Positions 251 through 18,071 of a stretch of 19,033 bases of DNA are shown piece after piece. The notes beneath the pieces are model-generated. The model was not told where the DNA came from and searched no databases. It saw nothing but the letters and a program-made list of their open reading frames with translations. Source of the stretch: a virus (lineage: Duplodnaviria; Heunggongvirae; Uroviricota; Caudoviricetes); IMG/VR virus record IMGVR_UViG_2681813004_000005, positions 1-19,033 of that record; one strand, written 5' to 3'. The stretch's first letter is position 1; every line of letters starts with the position of its first letter. The translations under genes and the position numbers were made by a program.

Positions 251-1396
251 ATGAAGAAATTAATCGAACTCCGCCAGCAAAAAACCGCCCTGAAAAACCA
301 GATGCGATCCCTGCTGGAAAAAGCCGACAGTGAAAACCGCAGCCTGAACGATGACGAAGGCAAACAGTTTGATGAACTGCGTGCAAAAGCCGATTCCCTC
401 GACACAGAAATCTCCCGTCTTGAAGCTGTTGCGGATGAAGAACGTAACCAGCCAGGTGTTTCCGTCGAAGAGAAAATCACCAAAGACGAACTACGCTCTT
501 ACATTCTGACCGGGGAAACCCGCAACCTGTCCGGCAGTGTCCCGGCTGATGGTGGTTATACGGTTATCCCGGAACTGAACAGAGAAGTTATGCGTCAGCT
601 TTCTGATGAATCGGTGATGCGTAAAATCTGTACTGTTAAAACCATTCACAGCAATGAATTTAAGCAACTGGTTTCTGCCGGGGGCGCGGTCGTTGAACAC
701 GGTGAAGAAGGTGCAGCACGTAACCAGACGGCAACACCAAAACTGAATGAAGTCAGTATCCGCCTGTATCCGATCTACGCTTACCCGAAAACCACTCAGG
801 AAATTATCGATTTTTCCGAAGTCGATATTATGGGCTGGTTATCTTCTGAAATTGGCGACACTTTCGTTGATACCGAAGAAACGGATCTGGTTTCCGGTGA
901 TGGCGAGAAAAAAGCTAAAGGTTTCCTGGCTTTTCCGCGCACTGCGGATAACGACAAAACCCGTCCTTTCGGTACGCTCCAGACGAAAAAAGTTACTGGC
1001 AGTCTCAGCGCCGACATGCTGATTGACCTGAAATTTACGCTGCGCAATAAGTACCGCAAAAAAGCTGTATGGGTGATGAACTCAAATACAGCCGCCTCCG
1101 CACAAAAACTGAAAAATGCCACTGGTGATTACATCTGGCGCGATCGTTTACAGGCTGGTGATCCTGATTCTCTGCTGGGGCTTCCGGTTGAATATCTGGA
1201 ATTTATGCCGGACGGTGTGATTGCAGTAGGTGACTTTAAGCGCGGTTATTTCATCGTTGACCATGAAACCGGTACGCGTACCCGTCCGGATTTCAGCGAA
1301 CCCGGATTCATTAACATCTATACCCAGAAATATCTGGGCGGTGGTGTGGTGGATTCGAACGCCATCAAGATTCTGGAAATTCAGGCTGGCAAGTAA
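251..1396 (+). CDS. Major capsid protein, HK97 fold, with N-terminal coiled-coil delta (scaffold) domain
   Basis: 381 aa ORF. N-terminal roughly 100 aa is charged and coiled-coil-like. C-terminal half aligns with the second capsid ORF at 10393-11598 (shared KGFLA, FKRGY.IVD, VDS.AIK.L motifs). Immediately followed by a terminator hairpin. Confidence 0.85.
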   Translation: MKKLIELRQQKTALKNQMRSLLEKADSENRSLNDDEGKQFDELRAKADSLDTEISRLEAVADEERNQPGVSVEEKITKDELRSYILTGETRNLSGSVPADGGYTVIPELNREVMRQLSDESVMRKICTVKTIHSNEFKQLVSAGGAVVEHGEEGAARNQTATPKLNEVSIRLYPIYAYPKTTQEIIDFSEVDIMGWLSSEIGDTFVDTEETDLVSGDGEKKAKGFLAFPRTADNDKTRPFGTLQTKKVTGSLSADMLIDLKFTLRNKYRKKAVWVMNSNTAASAQKLKNATGDYIWRDRLQAGDPDSLLGLPVEYLEFMPDGVIAVGDFKRGYFIVDHETGTRTRPDFSEPGFINIYTQKYLGGGVVDSNAIKILEIQAGK

Positions 1397-1401
1397 TGAG
1401 C

Positions 1402-1426
1402 AAAGGGGGCTTCGGCCTCCTTTTTC
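1402..1426 (+). terminator. Rho-independent terminator after the unit-1 capsid gene
   Basis: AAGGGGGC / TTCG tetraloop / GCCTCCTT stem (8 bp with one G-U pair) followed by TTTTT. Confidence 0.6.
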
Positions 1427-1445
1427 AGCTTTATGGAGTACACCG

Positions 1446-2006
1446 ATGAAAAATACCGATTTTGAAATCCGTACATCTGAACTGACCGCCAGCGATAAAA
1501 AACTGGTGGGTTATGCCGTTCGCTGGAACAGCCTTTCAGAAATTATCTGGGACGAATTCCGCGAACAGTTCACGCCGGGGGCTTTTGCTGACTATCTGGC
1601 GGCGGGTAATGATGTGCGCTGCCTGTATGAGCATGACTATACCCGACTGCTGGGGCGCACCAAATCCGGAACACTGGTACTGACTGAGGACAACACCGGG
1701 CTACGTTTTGAACTGACACCGCCTGATACCCAGCTTGGAAAAGATGTGCTTACGCTGGTGGAGCGTGGCGATATTACAGGAATGAGCTTTGGCTTTCGCG
1801 CATTATGCGAAGAATGGAATATCGCGCAAAAACCGTATCTGCGTACTGTTACCGCTGCAGAACTCAGGGAAATCACGATCACGTCGATGCCTGCTTATCC
1901 CGAATCTGGCGTGGAGATTGCCCACCGTTCGTTGTTTGCACAGCACCCTGAATTACGCCCGGCAGGAAATAATCGTCATCGCTGGGCTGAACTGGCGGGG
2001 TTGTGA
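1446..2006 (+). CDS. Prohead maturation protease, HK97 family
   Basis: First ATG of the 1230-2006 frame that has an RBS (GGAG about 10 nt upstream). Aligns with the protease ORF at 9728-10378. Position next to capsid and portal genes. Confidence 0.75.
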   Translation: MKNTDFEIRTSELTASDKKLVGYAVRWNSLSEIIWDEFREQFTPGAFADYLAAGNDVRCLYEHDYTRLLGRTKSGTLVLTEDNTGLRFELTPPDTQLGKDVLTLVERGDITGMSFGFRALCEEWNIAQKPYLRTVTAAELREITITSMPAYPESGVEIAHRSLFAQHPELRPAGNNRHRWAELAGL

Positions 2007-2007
2007 T

Positions 2008-3231
2008 ATGTGGTGGCCTTTTAGTCGTAAAAAAAGCGATCTGCGTAACCTGTCCATTGATGATTTTCTGGCGCTGTCCGGCGTACCGAATACCGGATCC
2101 GGAGAATATGTTTCTGCCGGGACGGCTGAATCATTGCCTGCTGTGATGAACGCGGTTTCTGTCATCGCTGAGGCGGTGGCCACGATGCCGTGTTATCTGT
2201 ATCTGGTACGTAATGACAAGGGCAGGGAGGCGCGGGAATGGCTGGACAGTCATCCGGTAGATATTCTGCTGAATGAGCAGCCTAATTCATGCCAGACACC
2301 TTACCAGTTTAAACGCACAATGATGCGTCACTGCCTGCTGAACGGTAACGCCTATGCGGTTATTGAGTGGGGGCAGGACGGGCAGCCAAAATCACTTCAT
2401 CCTTATGCGCCGGGGTGTGTTGTACCGGAACGCACAGGCGCACACAAATACCGATATACCATCACCGAACCCTATACAGGAACGGTGCGCACGTATTTAC
2501 AGGAAGAAGTTCTGCATCTCCGCTATGCCTCGGATGATGGCTTTCTGGGGCGTTCCCCCGTCACGATTTGCCGTGAGGCGCTGGGGCTTGGCCTTGCTCA
2601 ACAGCGTCACGGAGCCAGCATTATGAAAGATGGCATGATGGCGGCAGGGATTATCACGTCAGGCGAATGGCTGGACGGCGTGAAAGGTAAACAGGCATTA
2701 GACGCCCTGGAACGCTACAAGGGGGCGAAAAATGCCGGAAAAACGCCAATCCTTGAAGGGGGCATGGATTACAAGCAACTGGGGATGAGTAACCAGGATG
2801 CGGAATGGCTGGCCTCCCGTCGCTTCTCCATTGAAGACATCGCCCGGATGTTCAACGTGTCGCCTATTTTTCTGCAGGAATACAGCAACAGCACCTACAG
2901 CAATTTCAGTGAGGCAAGCCGCGCGTTTCTGACCATGACAATGCGTCCTTGGTTGGCGAACTTCGAACAGCAAATCAAGGCCGCTTTGCTGGTGGCTTCT
3001 CCCGTGCCTGGAACCCGTTATCTGGTTGAGTTTGATTCAGCCGATTTATTACGCGCCACCCCTACCGAACGTTACGCCACGTATGAGAAAGGGATTAAGA
3101 ACGGGATCATCAATCCGAACGAAGCCCGTGAGCGTGAGGGAATGCCGCCGCGTGAAGGTGGTGACGAGTTCAGCCAGGCATGGAAGCAGGAAGTGACAAT
3201 CAGCAAGAACAGTAAGGGCGGTGACGAATGA
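2008..3231 (+). CDS. Portal protein, HK97 family
   Basis: ATG at 2008, 2 nt after the protease stop. The track ORF from 1789 is an upstream artefact in the same frame. N-terminus MWWPFSRKKSD parallels MFFSGLFQRKSD of the second portal; shared C-terminal motifs (SIEDIARMFNV vs QLEEICRLFRV; NPNEAREREGMPPREGGDEF vs SPNDCRDLEDMNPRPGGDVY). Confidence 0.85.
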   Translation: MWWPFSRKKSDLRNLSIDDFLALSGVPNTGSGEYVSAGTAESLPAVMNAVSVIAEAVATMPCYLYLVRNDKGREAREWLDSHPVDILLNEQPNSCQTPYQFKRTMMRHCLLNGNAYAVIEWGQDGQPKSLHPYAPGCVVPERTGAHKYRYTITEPYTGTVRTYLQEEVLHLRYASDDGFLGRSPVTICREALGLGLAQQRHGASIMKDGMMAAGIITSGEWLDGVKGKQALDALERYKGAKNAGKTPILEGGMDYKQLGMSNQDAEWLASRRFSIEDIARMFNVSPIFLQEYSNSTYSNFSEASRAFLTMTMRPWLANFEQQIKAALLVASPVPGTRYLVEFDSADLLRATPTERYATYEKGIKNGIINPNEAREREGMPPREGGDEFSQAWKQEVTISKNSKGGDE

Positions 3232-3566
3232 TAGCCGGAAAGATGCGGGACCGGGTGACGATTATGACATTTACCACACAGCGCCTGCCGTCAGGTGCGA
3301 TCCAGCAGATATGGACGGAAGGGGAAACCCTCTGGGCAGAGGTCAAGGGGATCAGCGGACGGGAATTACTGACCGCAGGCGCAGAAACCGCACCTGCAAC
3401 GATTCGGGTATGGGTTCGCTATCGTGGCGACATATCCGCCGCCAGTCGCCTGAAAGTGCTTACCGGCGCTTTTGCCGGGAGCACGCTTAATATCATCGGG
3501 ATCCCCTTACCTGATGCGAAAAGAACCCGGCTGGAAATTCTGGCAAAGGTGGGTACAGAAAAATGA
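3228..3566 (+). CDS. Head-tail adaptor / head closure protein
   Basis: 112 aa. ATG overlaps the portal stop (ATGA). About 66 of 112 residues identical in an ungapped hand alignment to the ORF at 12163-12501, including the block WAEVKGISGRE and LKVLTGAF. Confidence 0.8.
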   Translation: MIAGKMRDRVTIMTFTTQRLPSGAIQQIWTEGETLWAEVKGISGRELLTAGAETAPATIRVWVRYRGDISAASRLKVLTGAFAGSTLNIIGIPLPDAKRTRLEILAKVGTEK

Positions 3567-3859
3567 CAGCAGAAAAAATAACCCTGGAAGAGGCCAAACT
3601 TCACTGCCGCATAGATGGTAACACAGAAGACACACTGATTCAGGCATACATAAGCGCGGCGCTGGAGGTATGCCAGAAGCATATTGGCAGGCGTTTTGAT
3701 GACGGCCTGGAATTTACCCCTGCAATAAAAATTGGTTGCCTGATGTACATCTCGCAACTGTACGAGTACCGGACAACGCTTGGCGATACCGATACAAAAG
3801 AAATTCCCCTGACGATTTCTGCGCTCTGGTCGGTTTATCGTGATGTGGGGGTGTACTGA
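3563..3859 (+). CDS. Head-tail connector, gp6-like
   Basis: 98 aa. ATGA overlap with the upstream gene. N-terminal TLEEAKLHCRID matches TLEELRVQCRID of the ORF at 11849-12154; weaker similarity further on. Confidence 0.7.
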   Translation: MTAEKITLEEAKLHCRIDGNTEDTLIQAYISAALEVCQKHIGRRFDDGLEFTPAIKIGCLMYISQLYEYRTTLGDTDTKEIPLTISALWSVYRDVGVY

Positions 3860-4299
3860 TGCCGTGGCAACCATTAAGGCGATGCACTGAGCCGGGCTGT
3901 AATAAGCGCGTGAAGTCCGGCAAGTGTGAAGAGCACAGGCGGGCTGCATGGCGTGCAGAGGATGCCAGACGGGGACACCGCCGCGCGCGCGGGTATTCCC
4001 GACAGTGGGACAAATACCGCGCCCTGTACCTGAGCAAAAACCCGTTATGCGTGCGTTGTCTGGCTAAGGGGATTTATACGCCAGCTCTTGTGGTGGATCA
4101 CATCATTCCCATCAATGGCGGCGGTGATGTTCTCTTCTGGCCTGAGTGGAACCACCAGGCATTGTGCCAGACGTGCCACAACCGTAAGACGACACGGGAA
4201 GACCCAGCCACGAAAGCGAACCGTAAGGCGGGTATGTATCGCGAGCAGGAAGAACGGGCGGCACACCGTAACGACTGGATGTATGGCGATGATGACTGA
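3859..4299 (+). CDS. HNH endonuclease, phage packaging-associated (HK97 gp74-like)
   Basis: 146 aa with Cys-rich N-terminus and HNH motif (DHIIP ... N ... CHNRKT). Sits immediately upstream of terS, as in HK97-type cos phages. Start overlaps the previous stop (TGATG). Confidence 0.8.
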   Translation: MPWQPLRRCTEPGCNKRVKSGKCEEHRRAAWRAEDARRGHRRARGYSRQWDKYRALYLSKNPLCVRCLAKGIYTPALVVDHIIPINGGGDVLFWPEWNHQALCQTCHNRKTTREDPATKANRKAGMYREQEERAAHRNDWMYGDDD

Positions 4300-4468
4300 A
4301 CAGGAGCAAAACAGGCTGATACGTGGACTGATAAGGCAGCGTGACTTATGGAAGACACAGGAGACAGGGCACAAAGCCAACAGGACAGGGCGCACAGAAC
4401 GCACCACAGCGAAGCGATTAACCGACCGTGACCGCGAGGTCATGGAATGTTTTCGCAATCGCTGGTGA
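4283..4468 (+). CDS. Hypothetical small Arg-rich protein (about 60 aa)
   Basis: 3' portion of the 4088-4468 frame beginning at ATG 4283 (or 4289/4292), overlapping the HNH stop. No recognisable motif. The 5' part of that frame overlaps HNH and is discounted. Confidence 0.3.
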   Translation: MAMMTEQEQNRLIRGLIRQRDLWKTQETGHKANRTGRTERTTAKRLTDRDREVMECFRNRW

Positions 4469-4587
4469 GGCCGTCAGAGGGGGTGGGGGAGGTTTTCAGG
4501 ACAAAACCGTCCCTGCCGGACACCGACCGCCTCCTCAAATTTTTGTGCACGGAAATTTTTTTGAAAATAATTGGGCGAAAAAAGAAC

Positions 4588-4944
4588 ATGGCAAGACCAC
4601 CAAAAGCCCCCGCTTACCTGGATGAAATCGCGGTCAGGCAGTGGAAGGAAAAATCGCGCCAGCTTTCCGGGCGGGAAGACCTTACCCCCGCCGACTGGAG
4701 CAATCTGGAGCTGTATTGCGTTAACTACTCCATATACCGCAAAGCCGTCGAAGACCTTGCCACGCGCGGGTTCAGCATTGTTAACAGTCAGGGCAGCGAG
4801 AGCAGAAACCCCGCCCTGAGCGCAAAGGCTGACGCTGAAAGAATAATGATCAAAATGGCTTCTTTGCTGGGTTTTGACCCGGTAAGCCGCCGCAGAAATC
4901 CACCGGAAACAGAGGAAGAGGACGAGCTTGACCGCCTGGCATGA
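4588..4944 (+). CDS. terS: Terminase small subunit, P27 family
   Basis: Internal ATG at 4588 gives N-terminus MARPPKAPAYLDE, typical of P27-family TerS. Sits between HNH and terL. The track ORF from 4447 is an upstream extension. Confidence 0.75.
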   Translation: MARPPKAPAYLDEIAVRQWKEKSRQLSGREDLTPADWSNLELYCVNYSIYRKAVEDLATRGFSIVNSQGSESRNPALSAKADAERIMIKMASLLGFDPVSRRRNPPETEEEDELDRLA

Positions 4945-6607
4945 GTACGCAGAAGGCGTAAAAAACGGCAAAATTACGGCCTGTAAACGACTGAAACAGG
5001 CCGTTAAACGGTATTTTTCTGACCTTGAAAACCCCCTTTACACGTTCGATCCGGAGGTCGTGGAGCGGTTTATTGCCTTTTCCAGGGTGTGTCCGCACGT
5101 AAAAGGCGCAATGCGCGGTAGCCCCATTGAGCTGGAGCCGTGGCAGCAGTTCGCCTTTGCGTGCATCCTGGGCTTTAAGGTTAAGGCCACCGGACGGCGC
5201 AAATACACCAGCGCATTCATTGAAGTGCCGCGAAAAAATGCCAAATCCACGGTCGCCGCTATCCTGGCTAACTGGTTTCTGGTTATGGAAAACGGGCAGC
5301 AGGATATTTACACCGCCGCCGTGAGTCGTGATCAGGCGCGGATCGTGTTTGATGATGCGCGTCAGATGTGCCTTTTATCCCGACCGTTACGAAAGCGGGT
5401 AAATATTCAGGCACACAAGGTGATACACCCGAAAACCAACAGCCTGTTAAAGCCACTGGCAGCAAAAGCGGCAACCATTGAGGGGACAAACCCGAGTCTT
5501 GCCATTGTGGATGAATATCACCTGCACCCAGACAACGGGGTTTATTCCGCGCTTGAACTGGGAATGGGGGCGCGTCCGGAGGGGTTATTATTTGCCATCA
5601 CCACATCGGGGAGCAACGTTGTTTCAGCCTGTAAACAACACTACGACTATTGCTGCCAGATACTGGATGGTGAAGAGGTGAACGAATCCATGTTCGTGCT
5701 GATTTACGAGCTGGATGATGAAAGCGAGGTTGACGATCCGGCGATGTGGATAAAGGCGAATCCAAATATCGATGTTTCCGTCGATCGTGAAAAACTGGCC
5801 TCAACCATCCAGAAAGCGCGGGGTATTCCGTCGCAGTGGGTGGAGATGATGACAAAGCGCTTTAATATCTGGTGTCAGGGGGCTACGCCGTGGATGGGTA
5901 ACGGTGCATGGGCTGAGTGTGCCGGAACGTTCGCGGAGGCGGATTTATACGGGCAGGAGTGCTACGCGGGGCTGGACTTATCATCAACCAGCGATATTTT
6001 TTCAACAAATGATATTTCAAGCGTGTGTTATGCCTTTCCGGTTGGTAAAACCATCATGCTGGTTTCCCGTCATTATCTGCCGGAGCAGCAGCTACAGAAT
6101 CCCGCCAATAAAAACCGCGCCATCTATCGCCAGTGGGCAAAATCGGGCTGGATACGCACAACGCCAGGCGACTGTATTGATTACGACCGTATCAGGGATG
6201 ACATCATGAAGGACGCGGAAAATTTTAATATCCGGCTGGTGGGCTTCGATACATGGAACGCCACGCACCTGATGACGCAGCTACAGGGCGCAGGATTTGA
6301 GGTGGAGCCGTTCCCGCAAACATACCTTCGTTTCAGTCCGGCGGCGAAATCGTTCGAAGTTTTTGTTAACCGGAAGGTGATTGTGCATCGTGGCGATCCG
6401 GTGCTGGCCTGGTCAATGAGTAATGTTGTGATGCAGAGTGACGCGAACGCCAATATCAAGCCGAACAAGAAAAAATCATCCAACAAGATAGACCCGAGCG
6501 TTGCGGCTCTGATGGCGTTTGGCACATTCCAGGCAGAGCATGAGGAATTTGCATTTGATATGAGCGACAGCCACAAAGAGCGACTTGCGGCGTTTGATGG
6601 GGTATGA
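4928..6607 (+). CDS. terL: Terminase large subunit (ATPase plus nuclease)
   Basis: 559 aa. The only in-frame start after the upstream stop is TTG at 4928, with a GAGGAAGAGG purine tract before it; overlaps the terS end. C-terminal half aligns with the terL remnant at 7572-8315. Confidence 0.85.
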   Translation: MTAWHEYAEGVKNGKITACKRLKQAVKRYFSDLENPLYTFDPEVVERFIAFSRVCPHVKGAMRGSPIELEPWQQFAFACILGFKVKATGRRKYTSAFIEVPRKNAKSTVAAILANWFLVMENGQQDIYTAAVSRDQARIVFDDARQMCLLSRPLRKRVNIQAHKVIHPKTNSLLKPLAAKAATIEGTNPSLAIVDEYHLHPDNGVYSALELGMGARPEGLLFAITTSGSNVVSACKQHYDYCCQILDGEEVNESMFVLIYELDDESEVDDPAMWIKANPNIDVSVDREKLASTIQKARGIPSQWVEMMTKRFNIWCQGATPWMGNGAWAECAGTFAEADLYGQECYAGLDLSSTSDIFSTNDISSVCYAFPVGKTIMLVSRHYLPEQQLQNPANKNRAIYRQWAKSGWIRTTPGDCIDYDRIRDDIMKDAENFNIRLVGFDTWNATHLMTQLQGAGFEVEPFPQTYLRFSPAAKSFEVFVNRKVIVHRGDPVLAWSMSNVVMQSDANANIKPNKKKSSNKIDPSVAALMAFGTFQAEHEEFAFDMSDSHKERLAAFDGV

Positions 6608-6888
6608 CGAGAATGAGCGAAACCGAACTACTAAAAATAATCCGCCGCGTTACCGGAATCAGCCAGGAAGCAGGCAAACAGGAGGCCACGCAGCCGGACA
6701 GCGTGATAGCCGAAAATTACGCGCGTGTGGTGGCTGAGGTGATGCGCCGTGACGGTATCGAGCTTAACGGCGTGGATATACGCACCAGAGTTCTGGAGTT
6801 GTTGTCATATCGTCGCCGCGTGGAGATGTACCAGGAGAAAGAAAAAATTACTTACCACTGGAAGAAGCCGGAGCGGTTACGACGTTAA
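6604..6888 (+). CDS. Hypothetical protein (94 aa), last gene of unit 1
   Basis: ATGA overlap with the terL stop suggests translational coupling. No motif recognised. Confidence 0.45.
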   Translation: MTRMSETELLKIIRRVTGISQEAGKQEATQPDSVIAENYARVVAEVMRRDGIELNGVDIRTRVLELLSYRRRVEMYQEKEKITYHWKKPERLRR

Positions 6889-6890
6889 CT

Positions 6891-6940
6891 TGTGGTGACA
6901 TACCGTGACGGAGAGTGACAACCAGTGACACACAGTGACA
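6891..6940. repeat. Five GTGAC(A/G) hexamers at exact 10-bp phasing; candidate protein-binding array (integrase arm-type, terminase or regulator sites)
   Basis: Read directly: GTGACA 6895, GTGACG 6905, GTGACA 6915, 6925, 6935, each preceded by a variable 4-mer. Starts 3 nt after the stop of the 6604-6888 ORF. Confidence 0.85.
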
Positions 6941-7001
6941 AAAAGACGGTATTTAAATAGAGTGGGTGTTTAATACCCCCCGTTTTTTTTCGTGTGGTGC
7001 A

Positions 7002-7016
7002 TGGTCAAAATGACCA
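7002..7016. promoter_or_regulatory. Perfect palindrome TGGTCA-AAA-TGACCA, operator-like
   Basis: Read directly; 6-bp arms, 3-bp spacer, preceded by a T8 run at 6983-6990. Confidence 0.5.
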
Positions 7017-7142
7017 CGGAGAAGATACGCACCGAAGCAGAACAATTACCGTAGGTTAAAGCGACAGTATTCACACCAGCAACCTGATTATCAATTTTCA
7101 GCCGTTCGGTGGCATCACTGGCCCCATTTTCCTGATGGGGTT

Positions 7143-7193
7143 GCGGGTTATTTTGGGGGTATTTGCGGGTTATTTTGAATGTCTCGCGGGTTA
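7143..7193. repeat. Three direct copies of GCGGGTTA at 21-22 bp spacing
   Basis: Copies at 7143, 7165, 7186; the first two sit in a longer unit TTTGCGGGTTATTTT. Confidence 0.85.
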
Positions 7194-7270
7194 CGCTTTG
7201 GCTAATATTCAAACGCATCATTTTTTAACGCATTGATATTAAAGAATAAAAAATACTTAGCAAGCGAAGA

Positions 7271-7295
7271 TAACCCGCTAACCCGCATAACCCGC
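7271..7295. repeat. Three tandem copies of TAACCCGC (reverse complement of GCGGGTTA) at 8-9 bp spacing
   Basis: Copies at 7271, 7279, 7288. With the 7143-7193 array they form an inverted pair around an AT-rich core of about 75 bp (7194-7270). Confidence 0.85.
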
Positions 7296-7571
7296 ACTGT
7301 TTTGTATATATATACGAAAAATTGCATTCAGGGGGGTGATCGAAATTTCTACTGCCTCTTATCTCTTTGAGTGCTCACCTCGTCAGATTGTTACACACAA
7401 GAAATAAAAAATGCTTCGCGATGGTAGGTCGAATCACTGTATCAAAAAACGGTGTGTATCAGCATTAAAACAATACAGATACGTGTATTGCGCTGTGTAT
7501 TGCTTGATGATTTATAAAGACTGTTTTTTCATGTTAAACGATTGATATACAGGTGATTTTAAAAAACTTGA

Positions 7572-8315
7572 AATATTCTTACCAAACACATGAATGTGTG
7601 GGTCACTGCCGAGTCTGCCTGGATGGACATGATTAAGTGGGAGAAATGCGAATACATTGCCCCACGACATGAGCTGAAAACGTATCCCATGTGGGTCGGC
7701 GTTGACCTTGCTCATAAGATTGATATCTGTGCGGCGGCAAAACTCTGGCGAACGGATAACGGGCATGTTCATGCCGATTTTAAATTCTGGCTCCCGGAAG
7801 GACGGCTGGAACGATGCTCGCGGCAGCAGGCAGAACTTTACCGGAAGTGGGCGGAGATGGATAAGCTGATTCTGACGGATGGTGATGTTATCGATCATGC
7901 TCAGATAAAAAGTGACTTACTGGAATGGATTGGTGGTGAAAACCTCAGGGAACTGGGATTTGACCCGTGGAGCGCGATGCAGTTCAGCCTGGCACTGGCT
8001 GAAGAAGGGATACCGCTGGTGGAGGTTCCGCAGACGGTTCGCAATCTGTCAGAGGCCATGAAGGAAACGGAATCACTGGTCTATGCCGGACGTTTCCATC
8101 ACAGCAATCATCCGGTCATGAACTGGATGATGTCTAACGTTACGGTAAAACCGGACAAAAACGACAATATCTTCCCGAATAAATCCACGCCGGAAGCCAA
8201 AATCGACGGCCCTGTTGCGATGTTTACAGCGATGAGCCGGATGCTGGTCAATGGTGGTGAACCGGAGCCGGATCTGTCTGAACATCTGGTCAGCGTGGGC
8301 ATCCGCTCGCTTTAA
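7572..8315 (+). pseudogene. terL: 5'-truncated terminase large subunit (C-terminal nuclease-domain remnant only)
   Basis: Frame is open only from 7572 (TGA at 7569-7571). The 241 aa from ATG 7590 align with the C-terminal part of the unit-1 TerL (LYRKWAEMDKLILTDGDVIDH vs IYRQWAKSGWIRTTPGDCIDY; HPVMNWMMSNV vs DPVLAWSMSNV). ATPase domain and upstream terS are absent; AT-rich non-coding DNA lies upstream. Confidence 0.8.
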
Positions 8316-14825: not shown

Positions 14826-17800
14826 ATGAGTGTGGCGACATTACGTGAACTGATTATTAAAATCTCGGCAAATTCCCGGTCATTCCAGTCAGAGATCTCC
14901 CGGGTTTCGCGTATGGGGCAGGATTACTACCGTACCATGCAGAACGGAGGCCGGCAGTCCGCTGCTGCATCCCGTGAAATGCGGCGTGCACTGGCAGAAG
15001 TGACGGATCAGATAAATACAGCTAAATCTTCGGCACTGAATATGGCGGGGGCATTTGCCGGGGCTTTTGCTACCGGTCATCTTATTTCTCTCGCCGATGA
15101 GTGGAATTCAGTAAATGCCCGTCTGAAGCAGGCCTCACAGTCCAGTGATGATTTTCAGGCATCACAGCGTGAATTAATGGCGATCAGCCAGAGAACGGGG
15201 ACGGCGTTTTCTGATAACGCCAGCCTTTTTGCCCGTTCTGCAGCTTCCATGCGGGAGTATGGCTACAGTTCTGAGGAGGTACTGAAAGTCACCGAGGCGA
15301 TCTCCACGGGCCTGAAATTATCCGGTGCCAGTACAGCAGAAGCCAGTTCGGTGATCACGCAGTTCAGTCAGGCACTGGCGCAGGGAGTGCTGCGTGGTGA
15401 AGAATTTAACTCTGTGAATGAGAACGGCGATCGTGTTATTCGTGCGCTGGCTGCGGGAATGGGTGTTGCCCGTAAGGATCTGAAGGCCATGGCGGATAAC
15501 GGAAAACTGACTGCCGATAAGGTTGTCCCTGCACTGATTAGTCAGCTTGGGGCGTTGCGTGATGAATATGCAGCAATGCCTGATACGGTTTCATCCTCTG
15601 CAACCAAAGTTGAAAACGCCTTTATGGCCTGGGTTGGTGGTGCGAACGAGGCAAGCGGAGTGACAAAGACGCTCTCTGGTGTGCTGAATGGTATTGCAGG
15701 CAATATTGACACTGTGGCAACCGCTGCCGGTGCTCTGGTTGCCGTCGGGGTAGCCCGATATTTTGGCAATATGGCGTCTTCTGCTGGATCTGCAACTGCC
15801 GGATTAATTACTGCAGCCAGAAACGAAGTGGCTCTTGCTGAAGCGCAACTTCGGGGGACACAGATAGCAACCGCCAGGGCGCGTGCGGCGGTTTATCGTG
15901 CGCAACAGGCGGTTGTTGCTGCTCGCGGTACCGAAAGGCAGGCAGCCGCAGAAGCGAAGCTGACAGCTGCCCAGGCGTCACTTACCCGTAATATTACGGC
16001 CAGAACAGCGGCACAGACAACGCTGAATACTGTCACGTCAGTGGGGAGTCGTCTGTTAAGTGGTGCGCTGGGGTTGGTTGGTGGTGTGCCGGGACTCGTC
16101 ATGCTGGGGGCGACGGCCTGGTACACGATGTATCAGAATCAGGAGCAGGCCAGAGAATCTGCACGCCAGTATGCCGCAACAATCGACGAAATTCGCCAGA
16201 AAACGTCGGCAATGTCGCTTCCTGAAGCGTCAGATAATGAGGAAAAGACGCGGCAGGCACTGAAGGAGCAGAACAGGTTAATTGACGAGCAGAAAAGTAA
16301 GATTAAATCCTTACAGGAAAAAATTGCTGGCTATCAGTATGTGCTGGCAAACCCGGGCTGGACAACCGATAACGGTTTTATGATTAACCACATGACGTCG
16401 GTAAAAACTGTCACAGAAGGGCTTGCAGAAGCAACAAATCAACTGGCAGTTGAACAGTCTCGCCTCACTCAAATGCAGGGCAAAGCGCAATCCATTCAGG
16501 ATGTGCTTGCCGGGCTGGAGGAGCGGCGGGTTGCGTTGATCCGTCAACAGGCAGCGGAACAAAACAAAGCGTATCAGTCCATGTTGATCATGAATGGGCA
16601 GCATACCGAGTTTAATCGCCTTCTCGGGCTTGGTAATGAATTACTTCAGCAGCGACAGGGGCTGGTGAATGTACCGTTACGGCTGCCACAGGCCACCCTG
16701 GATGATAAACAGCAGACCGCACTGAATAACAGCGAGCGCGAACTGGCTCTGTCCCGCCTGAAGGGGGAAGCCCGTGAGCGTGCCCGACTGGGTTATGCTG
16801 CGGATGATCTCGGCTTTGTGGGAGAGGCGTATCAGACAGCCAGACAGAATTATATCAATAACTCACTGGATGCCTGGCGAAATAACCAGGCAAATAAACC
16901 CAAAGCGCATAAAAAGACCGAAGCGGAAAAAACAGAAGATATTTATAAACGGCTGATTAAACAGCAAAAAGAACAAATAGCACTGGCAGGTCAGAATACT
17001 GAACTGGCTAAGATGAAATATCAGGTCAGTCAGGGCGAATTATCAACCCTGTCAGAAGCGCAGAAAAAAACGCTTTTACAGAATGCGGCACTCATCGACC
17101 AGAAAAAGATTCGTGAGCAGCTTGCCGCGTATGAAAGCAGTCTGGCGGACAGTAATGCCAGCGCCCGGGCATCTGACGACGCGCAGTTGCTGGGATATGG
17201 TGAAGGCTCACGGATGCGTGAACGACTCCAGGAAATGTGGAGTATCCGGCAGGCGTTTGAGCAGAAAAATAACGAGCTGCTGAGACAGTATCAGGCCGGA
17301 GAAATTGAAGAAGCCCTGTGGAAACAGGAAAAATCGCTGAATGAAAAATATCTGGAAGAGCGTCTCAGCGATCAGCAGGATTATTATGCAAAGGCTGATG
17401 CTTTACGCAGTGACTGGAATGCCGGACTCCAGGAGGGGCTGACGAACTGGGCAGACAGTGCCACCGATTATGCTTCGCAGGCGGCAGATGCTGTCGTTTC
17501 CACTATGGACGGGCTGGTATCAAATATTTCCGATGCACTGGCCGGAAATGTTGTGGACTGGCGAAACTGGGGGAGTTCAATCCTCCAGGAAGTTTCAAAA
17601 ATTCTGATGAACGCTGCCATCGTTAACGGGCTGAAGTCACTTTCCAAAAGCATGTCCGGTGCCGGAGGATGGCTTGGTACGGTCGGCGACTGGCTTTCCG
17701 GTGCAGTGGCAAACGCAAAAGGTGGTGTTTACACATCGGCAAATCTGAGTGCTTACAGTAACACTATTGTGGATACACCGACGTATTTTGCTTTTGCGAA

Positions 17801-18071
17801 AGGTGCCGGGCTGATGGGCGAGGCCGGGCCTGAAGCTATCATGCCACTGACACGGGCAGCGGACGGCTCTCTTGGGGTCAGAGCCATTGGCAATGTGAAT
17901 GGTGGCGGGGGATTTGTTTATTCTCCCGTGTATCACATCAGTATTCAGAATAAAGGGAGCAATGGCGAGATAGATACGCAGTCAGCCAGGGGGCTGGTGG
18001 ATCTGATCGACAGCAGGGTTGTGTCAATTATGCAGTCATCACGTCGGGACGGAGGATTATGCAGTGCCTGA
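14826..18071 (+). CDS. Tail tape measure protein
   Basis: 1081 aa. Long Ala/Gln-rich helical and coiled-coil regions, Gly-rich C-terminus. Lies between the chaperone and the M-like gene. Confidence 0.85.
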   Translation: MSVATLRELIIKISANSRSFQSEISRVSRMGQDYYRTMQNGGRQSAAASREMRRALAEVTDQINTAKSSALNMAGAFAGAFATGHLISLADEWNSVNARLKQASQSSDDFQASQRELMAISQRTGTAFSDNASLFARSAASMREYGYSSEEVLKVTEAISTGLKLSGASTAEASSVITQFSQALAQGVLRGEEFNSVNENGDRVIRALAAGMGVARKDLKAMADNGKLTADKVVPALISQLGALRDEYAAMPDTVSSSATKVENAFMAWVGGANEASGVTKTLSGVLNGIAGNIDTVATAAGALVAVGVARYFGNMASSAGSATAGLITAARNEVALAEAQLRGTQIATARARAAVYRAQQAVVAARGTERQAAAEAKLTAAQASLTRNITARTAAQTTLNTVTSVGSRLLSGALGLVGGVPGLVMLGATAWYTMYQNQEQARESARQYAATIDEIRQKTSAMSLPEASDNEEKTRQALKEQNRLIDEQKSKIKSLQEKIAGYQYVLANPGWTTDNGFMINHMTSVKTVTEGLAEATNQLAVEQSRLTQMQGKAQSIQDVLAGLEERRVALIRQQAAEQNKAYQSMLIMNGQHTEFNRLLGLGNELLQQRQGLVNVPLRLPQATLDDKQQTALNNSERELALSRLKGEARERARLGYAADDLGFVGEAYQTARQNYINNSLDAWRNNQANKPKAHKKTEAEKTEDIYKRLIKQQKEQIALAGQNTELAKMKYQVSQGELSTLSEAQKKTLLQNAALIDQKKIREQLAAYESSLADSNASARASDDAQLLGYGEGSRMRERLQEMWSIRQAFEQKNNELLRQYQAGEIEEALWKQEKSLNEKYLEERLSDQQDYYAKADALRSDWNAGLQEGLTNWADSATDYASQAADAVVSTMDGLVSNISDALAGNVVDWRNWGSSILQEVSKILMNAAIVNGLKSLSKSMSGAGGWLGTVGDWLSGAVANAKGGVYTSANLSAYSNTIVDTPTYFAFAKGAGLMGEAGPEAIMPLTRAADGSLGVRAIGNVNGGGGFVYSPVYHISIQNKGSNGEIDTQSARGLVDLIDSRVVSIMQSSRRDGGLCSA

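What the first reader, a model, noticed from the sequence alone, without database searches (positions are those of the whole stretch)
6891..6940. Five GTGACR hexamers at exact 10-bp phasing immediately after the last unit-1 gene
A hexamer recurring five times at precisely one helical turn puts all copies on one face of the DNA, which is typical of cooperative protein-binding arrays. The reverse complement TGTCAC(T) recalls the GTCACT core of lambda-type integrase arm sites as I remember them, so this may be the arm of an attachment site at the right end of unit 1. Terminase (pac/cos-type) or regulator binding sites are alternatives.
Basis: partly seen in the sequence, partly recalled or inferred. 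Interest (0 to 1): 0.65.

Follow-up and report, generated by a model that had tools for sequence, protein, structure and literature searches.

The report
Phased GTGAC array in phage satellite
Five GTGAC motifs spaced exactly one DNA turn apart sit at the end of a phage satellite's packaging operon; they are not integrase sites but have the same core, spacing and copy number as the replication-origin repeats of the kind of prophage this satellite lives in, so they may capture that phage's replication initiator.

Summary
GTGAC(A/G) occurs at 6895, 6905, 6915, 6925 and 6935, 7 bp after the stop of the last gene. No shuffle gives even three in phase.

Unit 1 is a capsid-forming PICI satellite inserted into the large-terminase gene of a resident HK97-like prophage.

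The attachment-arm reading fails.
- The array lies about 640 bp inside the right junction.
- It occurs with three integrase/AlpA types and at least four replication-protein types, each also seen without it.
- Another repeat, GTGTATTGC, lies near the right junction and, in a relative, next to int at the left junction.
- A terminase site is also unlikely: array-less elements carry about 97% identical TerL.

The array is an optional 47-55 bp cassette between p94 and the operon terminator. Three PICI families share it with unrelated flanks.

In viral contigs, phased GTGAC arrays lie mostly inside genes for one family of phage replisome organizers, as lambda's origin lies in gene O. The same kind of prophage in strain PEC240 carries 4+5 such repeats.

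Best explanation (about 0.35, no binding shown): an iteron mimic that titrates or exploits the phage initiator. Against it, the base before the core differs.

The parts
6895..6940 (+). Five GTGAC(A/G) units at exact 10-bp phase: GTGACATACC GTGACGGAGA GTGACAACCA GTGACACACA GTGACA
   Evidence: Identical in L002, L133-L137, L169, L187, L189 and L195. Four-copy variants occur in L190, L026, L043, L075, L121, L202 and L504.
6904..6950 (+). The 47-nt segment shared between cassette types with otherwise unrelated flanks: CGTGACGGAGAGTGACAACCAGTGACACAC[A/C]GTGACAAAAAGACGGT
   Evidence: Comparison of the window with L202, L043 and L504. In E. coli genomes, megablast hits H95-H99 cover only query positions 65-111 of the cassette, about window 6904-6950.
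6604..6888 (+). p94, the last gene of the satellite packaging operon. It belongs to phrog_1561 (unknown function). Its 3' end is the left boundary of the cassette.
   Evidence: The AF2 model has three helices at mean pLDDT 63. p94 is present both with and without the array.
6941..6992 (+). Bidirectional-type intrinsic terminator: an A-tract AAAAAGACGG, the hairpin GGGTGTTTAATACCC at 6964-6978, and a T-run. It forms the right boundary of the cassette. The last repeat pairs with the T-run side in the RNA fold.
   Evidence: The alignment with PEC240 shows homology resuming at the hairpin and T-run.

Best explanation
The array is an iteron-type, same-face protein-binding array. A phage satellite (a capsid-forming PICI) carries it as an optional cassette in the untranslated stretch between its last packaging-operon gene and the operon terminator.

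I propose that its ligand is not a satellite protein. I propose it is the replication initiator ('replisome organizer') of the lambdoid prophages these satellites live with. In this window and its relatives the satellite is physically inserted into such a prophage.

Those initiators carry their origin inside their own gene, as lambda O does. In strain PEC240's prophage the gene holds two arrays of GTCAC/GTGAC, 4 and 5 copies, at 10-11 bp phase. The 5-copy array is followed by an AT-rich repeat.

When the phage early genes are expressed, the initiator would also load on the satellite's array. Because the induced satellite amplifies, the array would multiply and titrate the initiator, interfering with the helper in the manner of a natural origin decoy. 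Alternatively, it could give the satellite a helper-triggered start of replication. I favour titration, because the satellite copy lacks the phage's AT-rich repeat block.

Shown here:
- the array and its non-randomness;
- its cassette nature;
- its independence of Int, AlpA, Rep and the terminase;
- identity of core and phase, and equal copy number, with the organizer's in-gene arrays;
- an organizer with such in-gene arrays in PEC240's prophage, which carries an array-less copy of the satellite; the organizer N-terminal domain on three viral contigs that also carry array-less satellites; and the organizer fragment in about two thirds of sampled genomes that have the array.

Inferred, not shown:
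- that the organizer binds GTGAC at all (by analogy with lambda O);
- that it binds the satellite copy;
- any effect on either element.
For: 1. Non-random and selected as a unit. No shuffle of 200 has three in phase. The core is invariant with free spacers. The only sequence shared between cassette types in three PICI families is the array itself plus a short tail; the flanks are unrelated.

2. No satellite partner.
- The array occurs with int1/alpA1 (L195), int2/alpA2 (L002, L133, L137, L040) and a third int/alpA type (L190).
- It occurs with DUF927 rep1, DUF927 rep2, an AAA_25-type Rep and at least one further Rep type.
- The same types occur without it (L001, L191, L194, L197).
- No satellite ORF associates with the array, except one that overlaps it.
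- No satellite ORF matches an HMM of the organizer's N-terminal domain.

3. The motif belongs to phage origins.
- Of at least 119 viral loci with four GTGAC at 10 bp, 78 lie inside an ORF. Sixty of those ORFs form one homology family of replication initiators.
- Control words give 45 and 56 loci, mostly plain tandem repeats: 1 and 8 have divergent spacers, against 30 unique arrays (34 loci) for GTGAC in a truncated scan.

4. The matching phage exists. In E. coli PEC240, the prophage whose TerL is split by an array-less relative of this cf-PICI encodes a 'phage replisome organizer'. Its gene holds 4x and 5x GTCAC arrays followed by GATAAAGATACA repeats.
- All 80 viral loci with that N-terminal domain have 4+5, 4+4 or 4+3 arrays.
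- Three of those contigs also carry int1-type cf-PICIs.
- Organizer spacing is 10 bp in 187 of 198 intervals.

5. Co-occurrence. The organizer fragment is present in 41 of the 60 best-matching genomes that have the array. The baseline is about 34-38% of 5426 complete E. coli genomes.

6. Same architecture with another specificity in the published helper HK106: TTGTCCAACGG x3+3 at 11 bp plus an AT-rich block inside its replication gene. In viral contigs, 117 of 120 such arrays lie in that gene family.

7. Precedent. Ectopic lambda origin iterons block lambda replication (PMC3349717, PMC4488673).

8. The AF2 model of the organizer has a confident helical N-terminal domain with a beta-wing. The array-encoded residues fall in a loop and in the disordered linker.
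Against: - No binding data exist for the organizer on any GTGAC array.
- The shared core is only 5 bp.
- In 252 organizer units the base before the core is C or T in 88% and A in 3%. The satellite units have G, C, A, A, A. This could be a coding constraint on the phage copies or a real specificity difference.
- The satellite copy lacks the phage's AT-rich repeat block.
- GTGAC arrays also occur next to terminase, primase and integrase genes in unrelated viral contigs. Other proteins may therefore read the same core.
- PEC240's own satellite, which sits in a matching prophage, lacks the array. 19 of the 60 best-matching array-carrying genomes lack the organizer fragment.
- The co-occurrence figure is not corrected for clonality or prophage load.
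- The replication module of the window's own prophage could not be read, because the window is a whole 19-kb contig.
- No other organizer-type iteron array was found in the alternative cassettes.
- Foldseek found no significant structural match for the organizer.
Confidence: 0.35

Rival explanations
1. The array binds a conserved satellite protein or a host protein, such as p94, another small conserved PICI protein, or a response regulator of the OmpR/PhoB type that reads direct repeats. It would act locally at the end of the operon, for example as a protein roadblock that backs up the terminator against AlpA-modified, terminator-resistant RNA polymerase.
For: - The array always sits between the last gene and an intrinsic terminator, in both the window-type and L202-type contexts.
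- PICI operons are driven by AlpA-family regulators. From general knowledge, AlpA in Pseudomonas is a processive antiterminator.
- Read on the other strand, the units are TGTCAC, which resembles the TGTCA core of pho boxes (general knowledge).
- p94 is always immediately upstream.
Against: - Elements with the same p94, TerL and other conserved proteins lack the array.
- p94 shows no detectable DNA-binding family or fold.
- Pho boxes have 11-bp spacing and AT-rich spacers, unlike this array.
- Nothing here tests roadblocking.
Confidence: 0.2
2. The array has no function of its own. A 10-bp unit was amplified by slippage in a recombination-prone, hairpin-rich variable region and then hitch-hiked.
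For: - Copy number varies between 4 and 5 by clean loss of one unit (L190).
- The region is a mosaic of short alternative modules.
- Only 114 of 5426 complete E. coli genomes carry the cassette.
Against: - Five core columns are invariant, while four of the five spacer columns are close to random and the fifth is A/G. Drift after duplication would not produce this pattern.
- The array alone is shared between contexts with unrelated flanks in three PICI families.
- The core and phase coincide with a widespread class of phage origin repeats.
Confidence: 0.15
3. The array is a second cis site for the satellite's own replication protein, like crr of P4 or incA of P1.
For: - Phased direct repeats are typical iterons.
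- One viral contig (L104) has AGTGACACAA x4 directly after a primase-helicase gene.
Against: - The array occurs unchanged with at least four unrelated Rep types, and each type also occurs without it.
- It lies 8-10 kb from rep.
Confidence: 0.07
4. The array is a terminase (TerS) recognition site, or another packaging signal.
For: - It follows TerS-TerL-p94 directly.
- Unrelated phages have GTGAC arrays between TerL and portal (L015 family) or upstream of terS (L006, L028).
Against: - Elements with about 97% identical TerL, and with the same packaging-gene set, lack the array.
- In lambda-type PICIs, the two cosN sites and the space for cosB lie 650-1600 bp to the left of the array.
- Capsid-less PICIs that have no terminase of their own also carry it (L040, L026).
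Confidence: 0.05
5. The array is an integrase arm-type site, or an excisionase (Xis/Cox/Apl/AlpA-type) filament site of the attachment site.
For: - Tandem direct repeats at one helical turn are typical of Xis, Cox and Apl sites.
- In the capsid-less PICI L040, the array lies within about 100 bp of the int2-type att arm.
Against: - The array is about 640 bp from the junction in the window.
- It shows no covariation with three Int types or three AlpA types.
- No GTGAC cluster lies near attL, int or alpA.
- Other repeats fit better: GTGTATTGC for int1, near attR in the window and next to int at attL in PEC240, and CTTGTTCC/GGAACAAC for int2.
Confidence: 0.03
6. The array acts at the RNA level. 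Five GUGAC motifs in the unstructured 3' UTR would bind an RNA-binding protein (some relatives encode a ProQ/FinO protein) or modulate 3'-end stability.
For: - The region is transcribed upstream of the terminator.
- It is predicted to be unstructured (z = -0.66).
- Several elements that carry the array encode ProQ.
Against: - A 10-nt period has no special meaning for RNA.
- ProQ occurs without the array, and the array occurs without ProQ (L040, L187).
- There is no Rfam match.
- The strict phase argues for duplex DNA.
Confidence: 0.05

Closest known systems
Origin iterons embedded in the initiator gene of lambdoid phages: lambda O/ori-lambda, and here the 'phage replisome organizer' family and the HK106 replication gene
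   Same: Four to five direct repeats of a short core at one helical turn. The core is GTGAC, spacing is 10 bp and copy number is 5, as in the organizer gene of the PEC240 prophage.
   Different: The array lies outside any initiator gene, in a satellite that encodes no such initiator. It has no AT-rich repeat block. The base before the core is mostly a purine rather than a pyrimidine. The spacers are unrelated, so it is not a copied piece of a known origin.
Origin decoys: the plasmid-borne ori-lambda inhibition phenotype (PMC3349717), ectopic ori-lambda copies (PMC4488673), and lactococcal 'Per' phage-encoded resistance (from memory)
   Same: Extra copies of a phage's initiator-binding repeats in trans would titrate the initiator and block phage replication. 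This is the mechanism proposed here.
   Different: Those cases are laboratory constructs on multicopy plasmids. Here the repeats would be a natural, optional cassette of a satellite, amplified by the satellite's own replication. No effect has been demonstrated.
P4 satellite sites read by helper proteins (P2 Cox boxes at the P4 PLL promoter) and the P4 crr / P1 incA auxiliary iteron arrays (from memory)
   Same: A satellite or plasmid carries a phased array of direct repeats, away from its origin, that is bound by a trans-acting replication or regulatory protein.
   Different: In P4 and P1 the ligands are known, and the arrays lie at a promoter or belong to the element's own Rep. Here the ligand is inferred and the array sits just before a terminator.
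Lambda-type integrase arm sites and Xis/Cox/Apl excisionase arrays
   Same: Tandem direct repeats on one face of the helix.
   Different: The array is about 640 bp from the core, is absent from the other arm, and is independent of integrase and AlpA type.

Membership tests
Integrase arm-type sites of an attachment site | Lie in the att arms, within roughly 50-200 bp of the crossover core | tested here: not met
   The junction with the split prophage TerL is at about 7572-7580. The array ends at 6940, about 640 bp away.
Integrase arm-type sites of an attachment site | Copies of the same motif on both arms (attL and attR) | tested here: not met
   No GTGAC cluster occurs anywhere else in the complete elements L002, L133 and L137. 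By contrast, GTGTATTGC x2 lies near attR in the window (7483-7503) and next to int at attL in PEC240 (L001 2130-2152).
Integrase arm-type sites of an attachment site | Co-varies with the integrase | tested here: not met
   The array is present with int1 (L195), int2 (L002, L133, L137, L040) and a third type (L190). It is absent with int1 (L001, L194) and with the third type (L191, L197).
Integrase arm-type sites of an attachment site | Bound by the N-terminal arm-binding domain of Int | not testable with these tools
   Needs EMSA or footprinting.
Excisionase (Xis/Cox/Apl/AlpA-type) filament sites | Head-to-tail direct repeats at about 10-11 bp | tested here: met
   Five units at exactly 10 bp.
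Excisionase (Xis/Cox/Apl/AlpA-type) filament sites | Located between the core and the arm sites of one att arm, and co-varying with the directionality factor | tested here: not met
   The array is about 640 bp from the core. It occurs with three AlpA types, and each type also occurs without it.
Origin iterons of the phage replisome-organizer family | Three or more direct repeats of the GTGAC core at 10-11 bp phase | tested here: met
   The window has 5 copies at 10 bp. Organizers carry 4+5 copies in 76 of 80 loci, and 187 of 198 intervals are 10 bp.
Origin iterons of the phage replisome-organizer family | Flanking-base preference of the family: a pyrimidine before the core in 88% of 252 units | tested here: not met
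   The window units have G, C, A, A, A before the core. The preference may instead reflect coding constraints on the phage copies.
Origin iterons of the phage replisome-organizer family | An adjacent AT-rich unwinding region | tested here: inconclusive
   Only about 23 bp of AT-rich sequence (AAAAAGACGGTATTTAAATAGAG) follows the array, and it overlaps the terminator. There is no GATAAAGATACA-type repeat block as in the phage.
Origin iterons of the phage replisome-organizer family | The cognate initiator is encoded in the same cell | tested here: inconclusive
   An organizer gene with in-gene GTCAC arrays is shown for the PEC240 prophage, which carries an array-less copy of the satellite. The same N-terminal domain lies on three viral contigs with array-less satellites. 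The organizer fragment is inferred in 41 of the 60 best-matching array-carrying genomes. The window's own prophage replication module lies off the contig.
Origin iterons of the phage replisome-organizer family | Bound by the initiator | not testable with these tools
   No binding data were found for this family in the library searches. The AF2 N-terminal domain is confident and has a beta-wing, but Foldseek gives no significant match.
Terminase recognition site (cosB / pac) | Adjacent to the cleavage site, and present in all elements that share the terminase | tested here: not met
   Elements with about 97% identical TerL lack the array. In lambda-type PICIs, cosN (GGGCGGCGACCT) lies 650-1600 bp away, with cosB space on the far side.
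Plasmid-type centromere (parC-like array) | An adjacent adaptor gene plus a motor gene (ParR/ParM, ParB/ParA or similar) | tested here: not met
   The neighbours are TerL and p94. No partition ATPase or actin-like gene is present in the element.
Capsid-forming PICI (context of the array) | Integrase, AlpA, a primase/helicase-type replication gene, and its own HK97-type capsid, protease, portal, connector, HNH, TerS and TerL, but no tail genes | tested here: met
   Pfam hits in the window. Complete relatives are L001, L002 and L190-L199. The description matches the bioRxiv paper 10.1101/2022.09.08.507074.

The most novel reading that the evidence does not exclude
A phage satellite carries, as an exchangeable cassette, a mimic of its helper or resident prophage's replication-origin iterons. 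On induction, the amplifying satellite soaks up the phage's replisome organizer, acting as a natural origin decoy, or uses it to start its own replication. That would be a DNA-level interference or hijack mechanism with no satellite protein involved. I found no paper describing such a mechanism in two full-text searches. The neighbouring alternative cassettes might then be further short DNA modules aimed at other phage or host factors.
Probability: 0.3. Interest if true: 0.8.

Novelty: new variant of a known kind. Interest (0 to 1): 0.6.

Why it matters
Capsid-forming PICIs reduce helper-phage yield strongly, more than 100-fold for KpCIDSM30104 (bioRxiv 10.1101/2025.02.11.637232). The passages of that paper that I read do not explain the mechanism.

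A protein-free decoy of the helper's origin would be a new class of satellite weapon. It could be tested directly with a plasmid, a phage and a gel shift. It would also explain why the cassette is optional and travels between PICI families, because its value would depend on which phages are around.

Independently of the satellite, the survey points to a large, uncharacterised family of phage replication initiators. One N-terminal type alone is present in about 38% of complete E. coli genomes. Their origins appear to be simple GTGAC x4-5 arrays written into their own coding sequence, which gives a concrete hypothesis for their origin and their specificity.

If the array proves inert, the result is still useful. 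It removes a plausible but wrong att-site annotation and places the real junction and the likely arm sites.

Tried and rejected
1. Integrase arm or RDF site. Rejected on distance to the junction, absence from attL, and lack of covariation with Int or AlpA.

2. The satellite's own origin or a crr-like site. Rejected because at least four Rep types share the same array.

3. Terminase site or cosB. Rejected.

4. p94 as an Rpp-like or other DNA-binding protein. There is no Pfam, NCBIfam or PDB hit, and PHROG 1561 has no known function. The AF2 model reaches only pLDDT 63, so I ran no fold search on it.

5. A satellite gene that co-occurs with the array. The only association is an ORF overlapping the array itself.

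6. A satellite homologue of the organizer's DNA-binding domain. No hit at E <= 10.

7. Other iteron-type arrays in the alternative cassettes, for example the HK106-type TTGTCCAACGG. None were found, so 'a library of decoys' is not supported.

8. Known RNA family. None. The RNA fold of the array is not better than shuffles.

9. Reading the replication module of the window's own prophage. Not possible: the window is the whole contig AOTC01000215.1, and the matching complete genome CP025676.1 could be reached only 10 kb either side of p94.

10. Divergent p94 loci in other species, to test core against spacer conservation. Only one species-level hit, so there is no depth.

11. Fold match for the organizer. 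Foldseek against the PDB gave nothing significant. The weak top hits include winged-helix regulators, sigma factors and unrelated proteins.

12. Promoter reading. GTGACA-17-TAGAGT is a weak sigma-70-like match that would fire straight into the terminator. I did not pursue it.
Full report
**1. The observation**

Reading 6600-7300 shows TAA at 6886-6888. This is the stop of a 94-aa ORF at 6604-6888, called p94 here. It is followed by ttgtg GTGACatacc GTGACggaga GTGACaacca GTGACacaca GTGACaaaaag.

The hexamers GTGACA, GTGACG, GTGACA, GTGACA and GTGACA start at 6895, 6905, 6915, 6925 and 6935. None of 200 dinucleotide-preserving shuffles of the window contains even three GTGAC in 10-bp phase; the window holds three overlapping triples. 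GTGACR as a word is only mildly enriched in the window as a whole, 29 against 20 expected. The signal is therefore the local phased cluster.

Tandem Repeats Finder reports period 10 and 4.8 copies. Across the five units the five core columns are invariant. Four of the five spacer columns are close to random and the first is A in four units and G in one.

**2. What surrounds it**

The genes at 251-6888 form an HK97-type head and packaging module:
- capsid;
- prohead protease;
- portal;
- head completion protein;
- connector;
- HNH endonuclease;
- P27-family TerS;
- TerL;
- p94.

Complete relatives add an integrase, one or two AlpA-family regulators, Icd-like genes, DUF4222, a primase/helicase-type replication gene and SSB on the left. 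They have no tail genes. This is the gene content of a capsid-forming PICI as described in bioRxiv 10.1101/2022.09.08.507074.

To the right, 7590-8315 is only the nuclease half of another TerL. It is followed by the portal, protease, capsid and tail genes of an HK97-like prophage.

In E. coli PEC240 the same arrangement shows the other half of that TerL to the left of the satellite's integrase. The satellite is therefore inserted into the large-terminase gene of a resident prophage.

The window is a whole contig, AOTC01000215.1 of GCA_001447405.1. The satellite's left part and the prophage's early region are therefore not in it. The same configuration occurs in the complete genome CP025676.1.

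The array is followed by AAAAAGACGG, a hairpin at 6964-6978 and a T-run. Together these form a bidirectional-type intrinsic terminator. The array is thus the untranslated stretch between the last gene and the operon terminator. As RNA it is unstructured (z = -0.66). No Rfam family matches 6400-7700.

**3. It is not an attachment-site arm**

Four lines of evidence argue against the att-arm reading.

- *Position.* Comparing the two TerL halves places the crossover near TTACCAA at about 7572-7580, roughly 640 bp from the array.

- *Better candidates.* GTGTATTGC occurs twice at window 7483-7503. It also occurs twice next to int at the left junction of PEC240 (L001 2130-2152). These repeats lie near both junctions, as arm-type sites should.

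- *Comparison with close relatives.* PEC240 has the same insertion site and is about 95% identical. Yet it lacks the array: the roughly 85 bp between the p94 stop and the terminator are replaced by unrelated sequence. E700025 has a 40%-identical integrase and sits in yifB, yet it has the identical array.

- *Comparison across about 85 satellite loci*.
  - The array occurs with int1/alpA1 (L195), int2/alpA2 (L002, L133, L137, L040) and a third type (L190).
  - Each type also occurs without it (L001, L194, L191, L197).
  - No other GTGAC cluster exists in the complete elements examined.
  - Elements of the int2 type have their own phased repeats, CTTGTTCC/GGAACAAC, at attL and after int.

**4. 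It is not the satellite's own origin or a packaging site**

The array occurs unchanged with several replication proteins: DUF927 of two types, an AAA_25-type Rep and at least one further type.

TerL is about 97% identical in elements with and without the array. I did not tabulate TerS or HNH identity.

Capsid-less PICIs (L040, L026) and lambda-type PICIs with gpE-like capsid, decoration and TerS genes (L202, L504) also carry p94 plus the array. In L202 and L026 the two lambda-like cosN sequences (GGGCGGCGACCT) lie 650-1600 bp to the left of the array, with their cosB sides elsewhere.

No satellite ORF associates with the array except one that overlaps it.

p94 has no Pfam, NCBIfam or PDB relative. 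It belongs to PHROG 1561, of unknown function, and folds only to pLDDT 63. It occurs with and without the array.

**5. It is a cassette**

The stretch after p94 is a mosaic of short alternative modules, many of them small palindromes.

Between the window-type and L202-type contexts, the only shared sequence is CGTGACGGAGAGTGACAACCAGTGACACAC[A/C]GTGACAAAAAGACGGT. The flanks on both sides are unrelated.

L190 has lost exactly one 10-bp unit.

In 5426 complete E. coli genomes the cassette covers at least 80% of a 151-191-nt query in 114 genomes. p94 itself is essentially restricted to Escherichia and Shigella.

An array that travels as a unit and keeps its cores argues for function.

**6. Where else phased GTGAC arrays occur**

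Two control words of similar composition gave 45 and 56 loci in complete scans. Only 1 and 8 of those arrays have divergent spacers, against 30 unique arrays (34 loci) for GTGAC.

Of the GTGAC arrays, 78 lie inside an ORF of usually 190-390 aa on the opposite strand. Sixty of these ORFs form one homology family. The family has these features:
- Enterobacterial members sit after a Cro-like gene and a YdaT-like gene.
- They are followed by a further 245-260-aa ORF of the early region (function not checked).
- They carry a C-terminal DnaT domain or another C-terminus.
- They are annotated 'phage replisome organizer', 'replication protein O' or 'primosomal protein I'.

Lambda keeps its origin iterons inside gene O in the same way (established knowledge).

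The remaining arrays lie in four other settings:
- between TerL and portal (one high-GC family);
- upstream of terS;
- after primase or helicase genes;
- next to integrases.

The core is therefore not exclusive to one protein family.

**7. The matching phage**

I fetched the early region of the PEC240 prophage, the one whose TerL is split by the satellite. It encodes Cro/CI, YdaT and a 356-aa 'phage replisome organizer'.

Its gene contains two GTCAC arrays. One has 4 copies at L201 17514-17549. The other has 5 copies at 17774-17819, at 10-11 bp. In the gene direction, the 5-copy array is followed by GATAAAGATACAGATAAAGATACAGATC.

All 80 viral loci retrieved with this N-terminal domain have 4+5 (76 loci), 4+4 or 4+3 arrays. 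Three of those contigs are the very contigs that carry int1-type capsid-forming PICIs.

Organizer intervals are 10 bp in 187 of 198 cases.

An AF2 model gives a confident helical N-terminal domain with a beta-wing (pLDDT 76-92). The residues encoded by the two arrays fall in a loop and in the disordered linker. This fits a DNA signal written into tolerant protein segments. Foldseek found no significant PDB match; the weak top hits include winged-helix regulators, sigma factors and unrelated proteins.

The published helper HK106 shows the same architecture with another word: TTGTCCAACGG x3+3 at 11 bp plus an AT-rich block inside its replication gene. In viral contigs, 117 of 120 such arrays lie in that gene family.

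**8. Co-occurrence**

The organizer's N-terminal 475 bp is found in 2078 of 5426 complete genomes, or 38%.

I then searched with a chimeric query made of the cassette plus 115 bp of the organizer, and with the cassette alone. Comparing the number of places per genome, 41 of the 60 best-matching array-carrying genomes hold the organizer fragment as well.

The binomial p is 2e-6 against 0.38. Many of these genomes are clonal, and genomes that carry a PICI may simply carry more prophages. I treat this result as suggestive only.

**9. Best explanation and its weak points**

I propose that the array is an iteron mimic read by the replisome organizer of resident or helper prophages. It would act either as a decoy that titrates the initiator once the satellite amplifies, or as a helper-triggered replication start.

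Origin decoys work experimentally for lambda (PMC3349717, PMC4488673). Two full-text searches, one for 'satellite', 'helper phage', 'origin of replication' and 'decoy' together, found no paper on a satellite carrying helper origin repeats.

Weak points:
- No binding data exist.
- The core is only 5 bp.
- The base before the core is C or T in 88% of organizer units but G, C, A, A, A here.
- The AT-rich repeat block is missing.
- PEC240's own satellite lacks the array.
- 19 of the 60 best-matching array-carrying genomes lack the organizer fragment.
- No other iteron type was found in the alternative cassettes.
- The window's own prophage replication module could not be read.

I put this explanation at about 0.35. 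The rivals are:

| Rival | Confidence |
|---|---|
| Local roadblock or other site for a conserved satellite or host protein | 0.2 |
| Functionless slippage product | 0.15 |
| Site for the satellite's own Rep | 0.07 |
| Terminase site | 0.05 |
| RNA element | 0.05 |
| Int arm or excisionase site | 0.03 |

**10. Verdict**

The array is real, non-random and conserved as a module. The attachment-arm interpretation is wrong.

What it works like is an origin-type iteron array. Membership in the organizer-iteron class is supported on core, phase and copy number. It is not met on the flanking base, is inconclusive on the AT-rich region, and is untested for binding.

If the decoy or hijack reading holds, it would be a new, protein-free way for a satellite to act on its helper. 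That reading can be tested directly.

Noticed in passing
window 7572-8315, with L001 973-2001 and 17081-17824: The capsid-forming PICI is integrated inside the large-terminase gene of a resident HK97-like prophage and splits it in two. The same insertion recurs in many E. coli genomes and viral contigs (L182, L183, L192-L196, L199). While the satellite is integrated, the prophage has no intact TerL.
   Followed up: partly
window 7483-7491 and 7495-7503; L001 2130-2152: GTGTATTGC occurs twice at 12-bp spacing near the right junction, and twice just upstream of int at the left junction in PEC240. These are the likely arm-type sites of the int1-type integrase. The crossover core is near TTACCAA at about 7572-7580.
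   Followed up: partly
window 7143-7295: GCGGGTTA occurs three times at 21-22 bp spacing (7143, 7165, 7186). An AT-rich stretch of about 70 bp follows, and then TAACCCGC occurs three times in inverted orientation (7271, 7279, 7288). The layout resembles an origin or operator. It is conserved in the capsid-forming PICIs examined (L001, L002, L182-L184, L192, L199), which include two Int and two Rep types, and is absent from the capsid-less PICI L040. Its ligand is unknown.
   Followed up: partly
window 1754, 2988, 6235, 8015, 8455, 8811, 17993, 18172: There are eight Chi sites (GCTGGTGG), all on the + strand, against 0.84 expected. Three are in the satellite and five in the prophage. Several of the array-less alternative cassettes after p94 carry a Chi or a one-mismatch Chi at the position where this window has the GTGAC array (L001, L191, L194, L148, L166).
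   Followed up: partly
downstream of p94 in L001, L043, L127, L138, L148, L149, L163, L171, L202, L504: The region after p94 is a mosaic of short modules. Many begin with ...GGTAACTGNTTGATATTCCCGA and are followed by a small palindrome, such as GCGCAAATTTGCGC, CTCAATTTTGAGG, CCCCCATTGGGGG or ACTACGAAATTTTCGTAGT. Numbers and order vary. Their function is unknown.
   Followed up: no
window 7001-7015; L202 about 9170: The palindrome TGGTCAAAATGACCA (GGTCA-N3-5-TGACC) lies just after the terminator. It recurs in the L202-type context and resembles a dimer operator.
   Followed up: no
L002 3560-3630, 3850-3890 and 2200-2250: Elements of the int2 type carry their own roughly 10-bp phased repeats. 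GGAACAAC/GACACAAC occurs about six times just after int, GACACAA twice before alpA, and the inverse CTTGTTCC four times on the attL side. These are candidate Int-arm, excisionase or AlpA sites for that module.
   Followed up: no
L201 17386-18456 and loci L304-L383: The E. coli 'phage replisome organizer' family writes its presumed origin into its own coding sequence. GTCAC repeats at 10 bp encode the ...SRNVTRGH.. and ..CH..SR..VT.. peptide patterns. The protein length polymorphism (302-374 aa) probably reflects repeat number. One N-terminal type is present in 38% of complete E. coli genomes.
   Followed up: partly
L435 1263-1340; L015-family loci (L004, L015, L036, L038, L071, L093, L097, L115, L118): Organizer-type iteron arrays also occur inside packaging modules of unrelated phages. 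In a low-GC phage, TTGTCCAACGG x4 plus AT-rich repeats lie between terS and terL. In a high-GC family, GTGAC x4 to at least 7 (variable copy number) lie between TerL and portal. It is unknown whether these are origins, decoys or terminase sites.
   Followed up: no
window 6970-7221, minus strand: An 83-aa ORF is annotated as a hypothetical protein in some RefSeq relatives (WP_028120178.1). It has low-complexity sequence and no family hit, and it overlaps the GCGGGTTA repeats. It is probably not a gene.
   Followed up: partly
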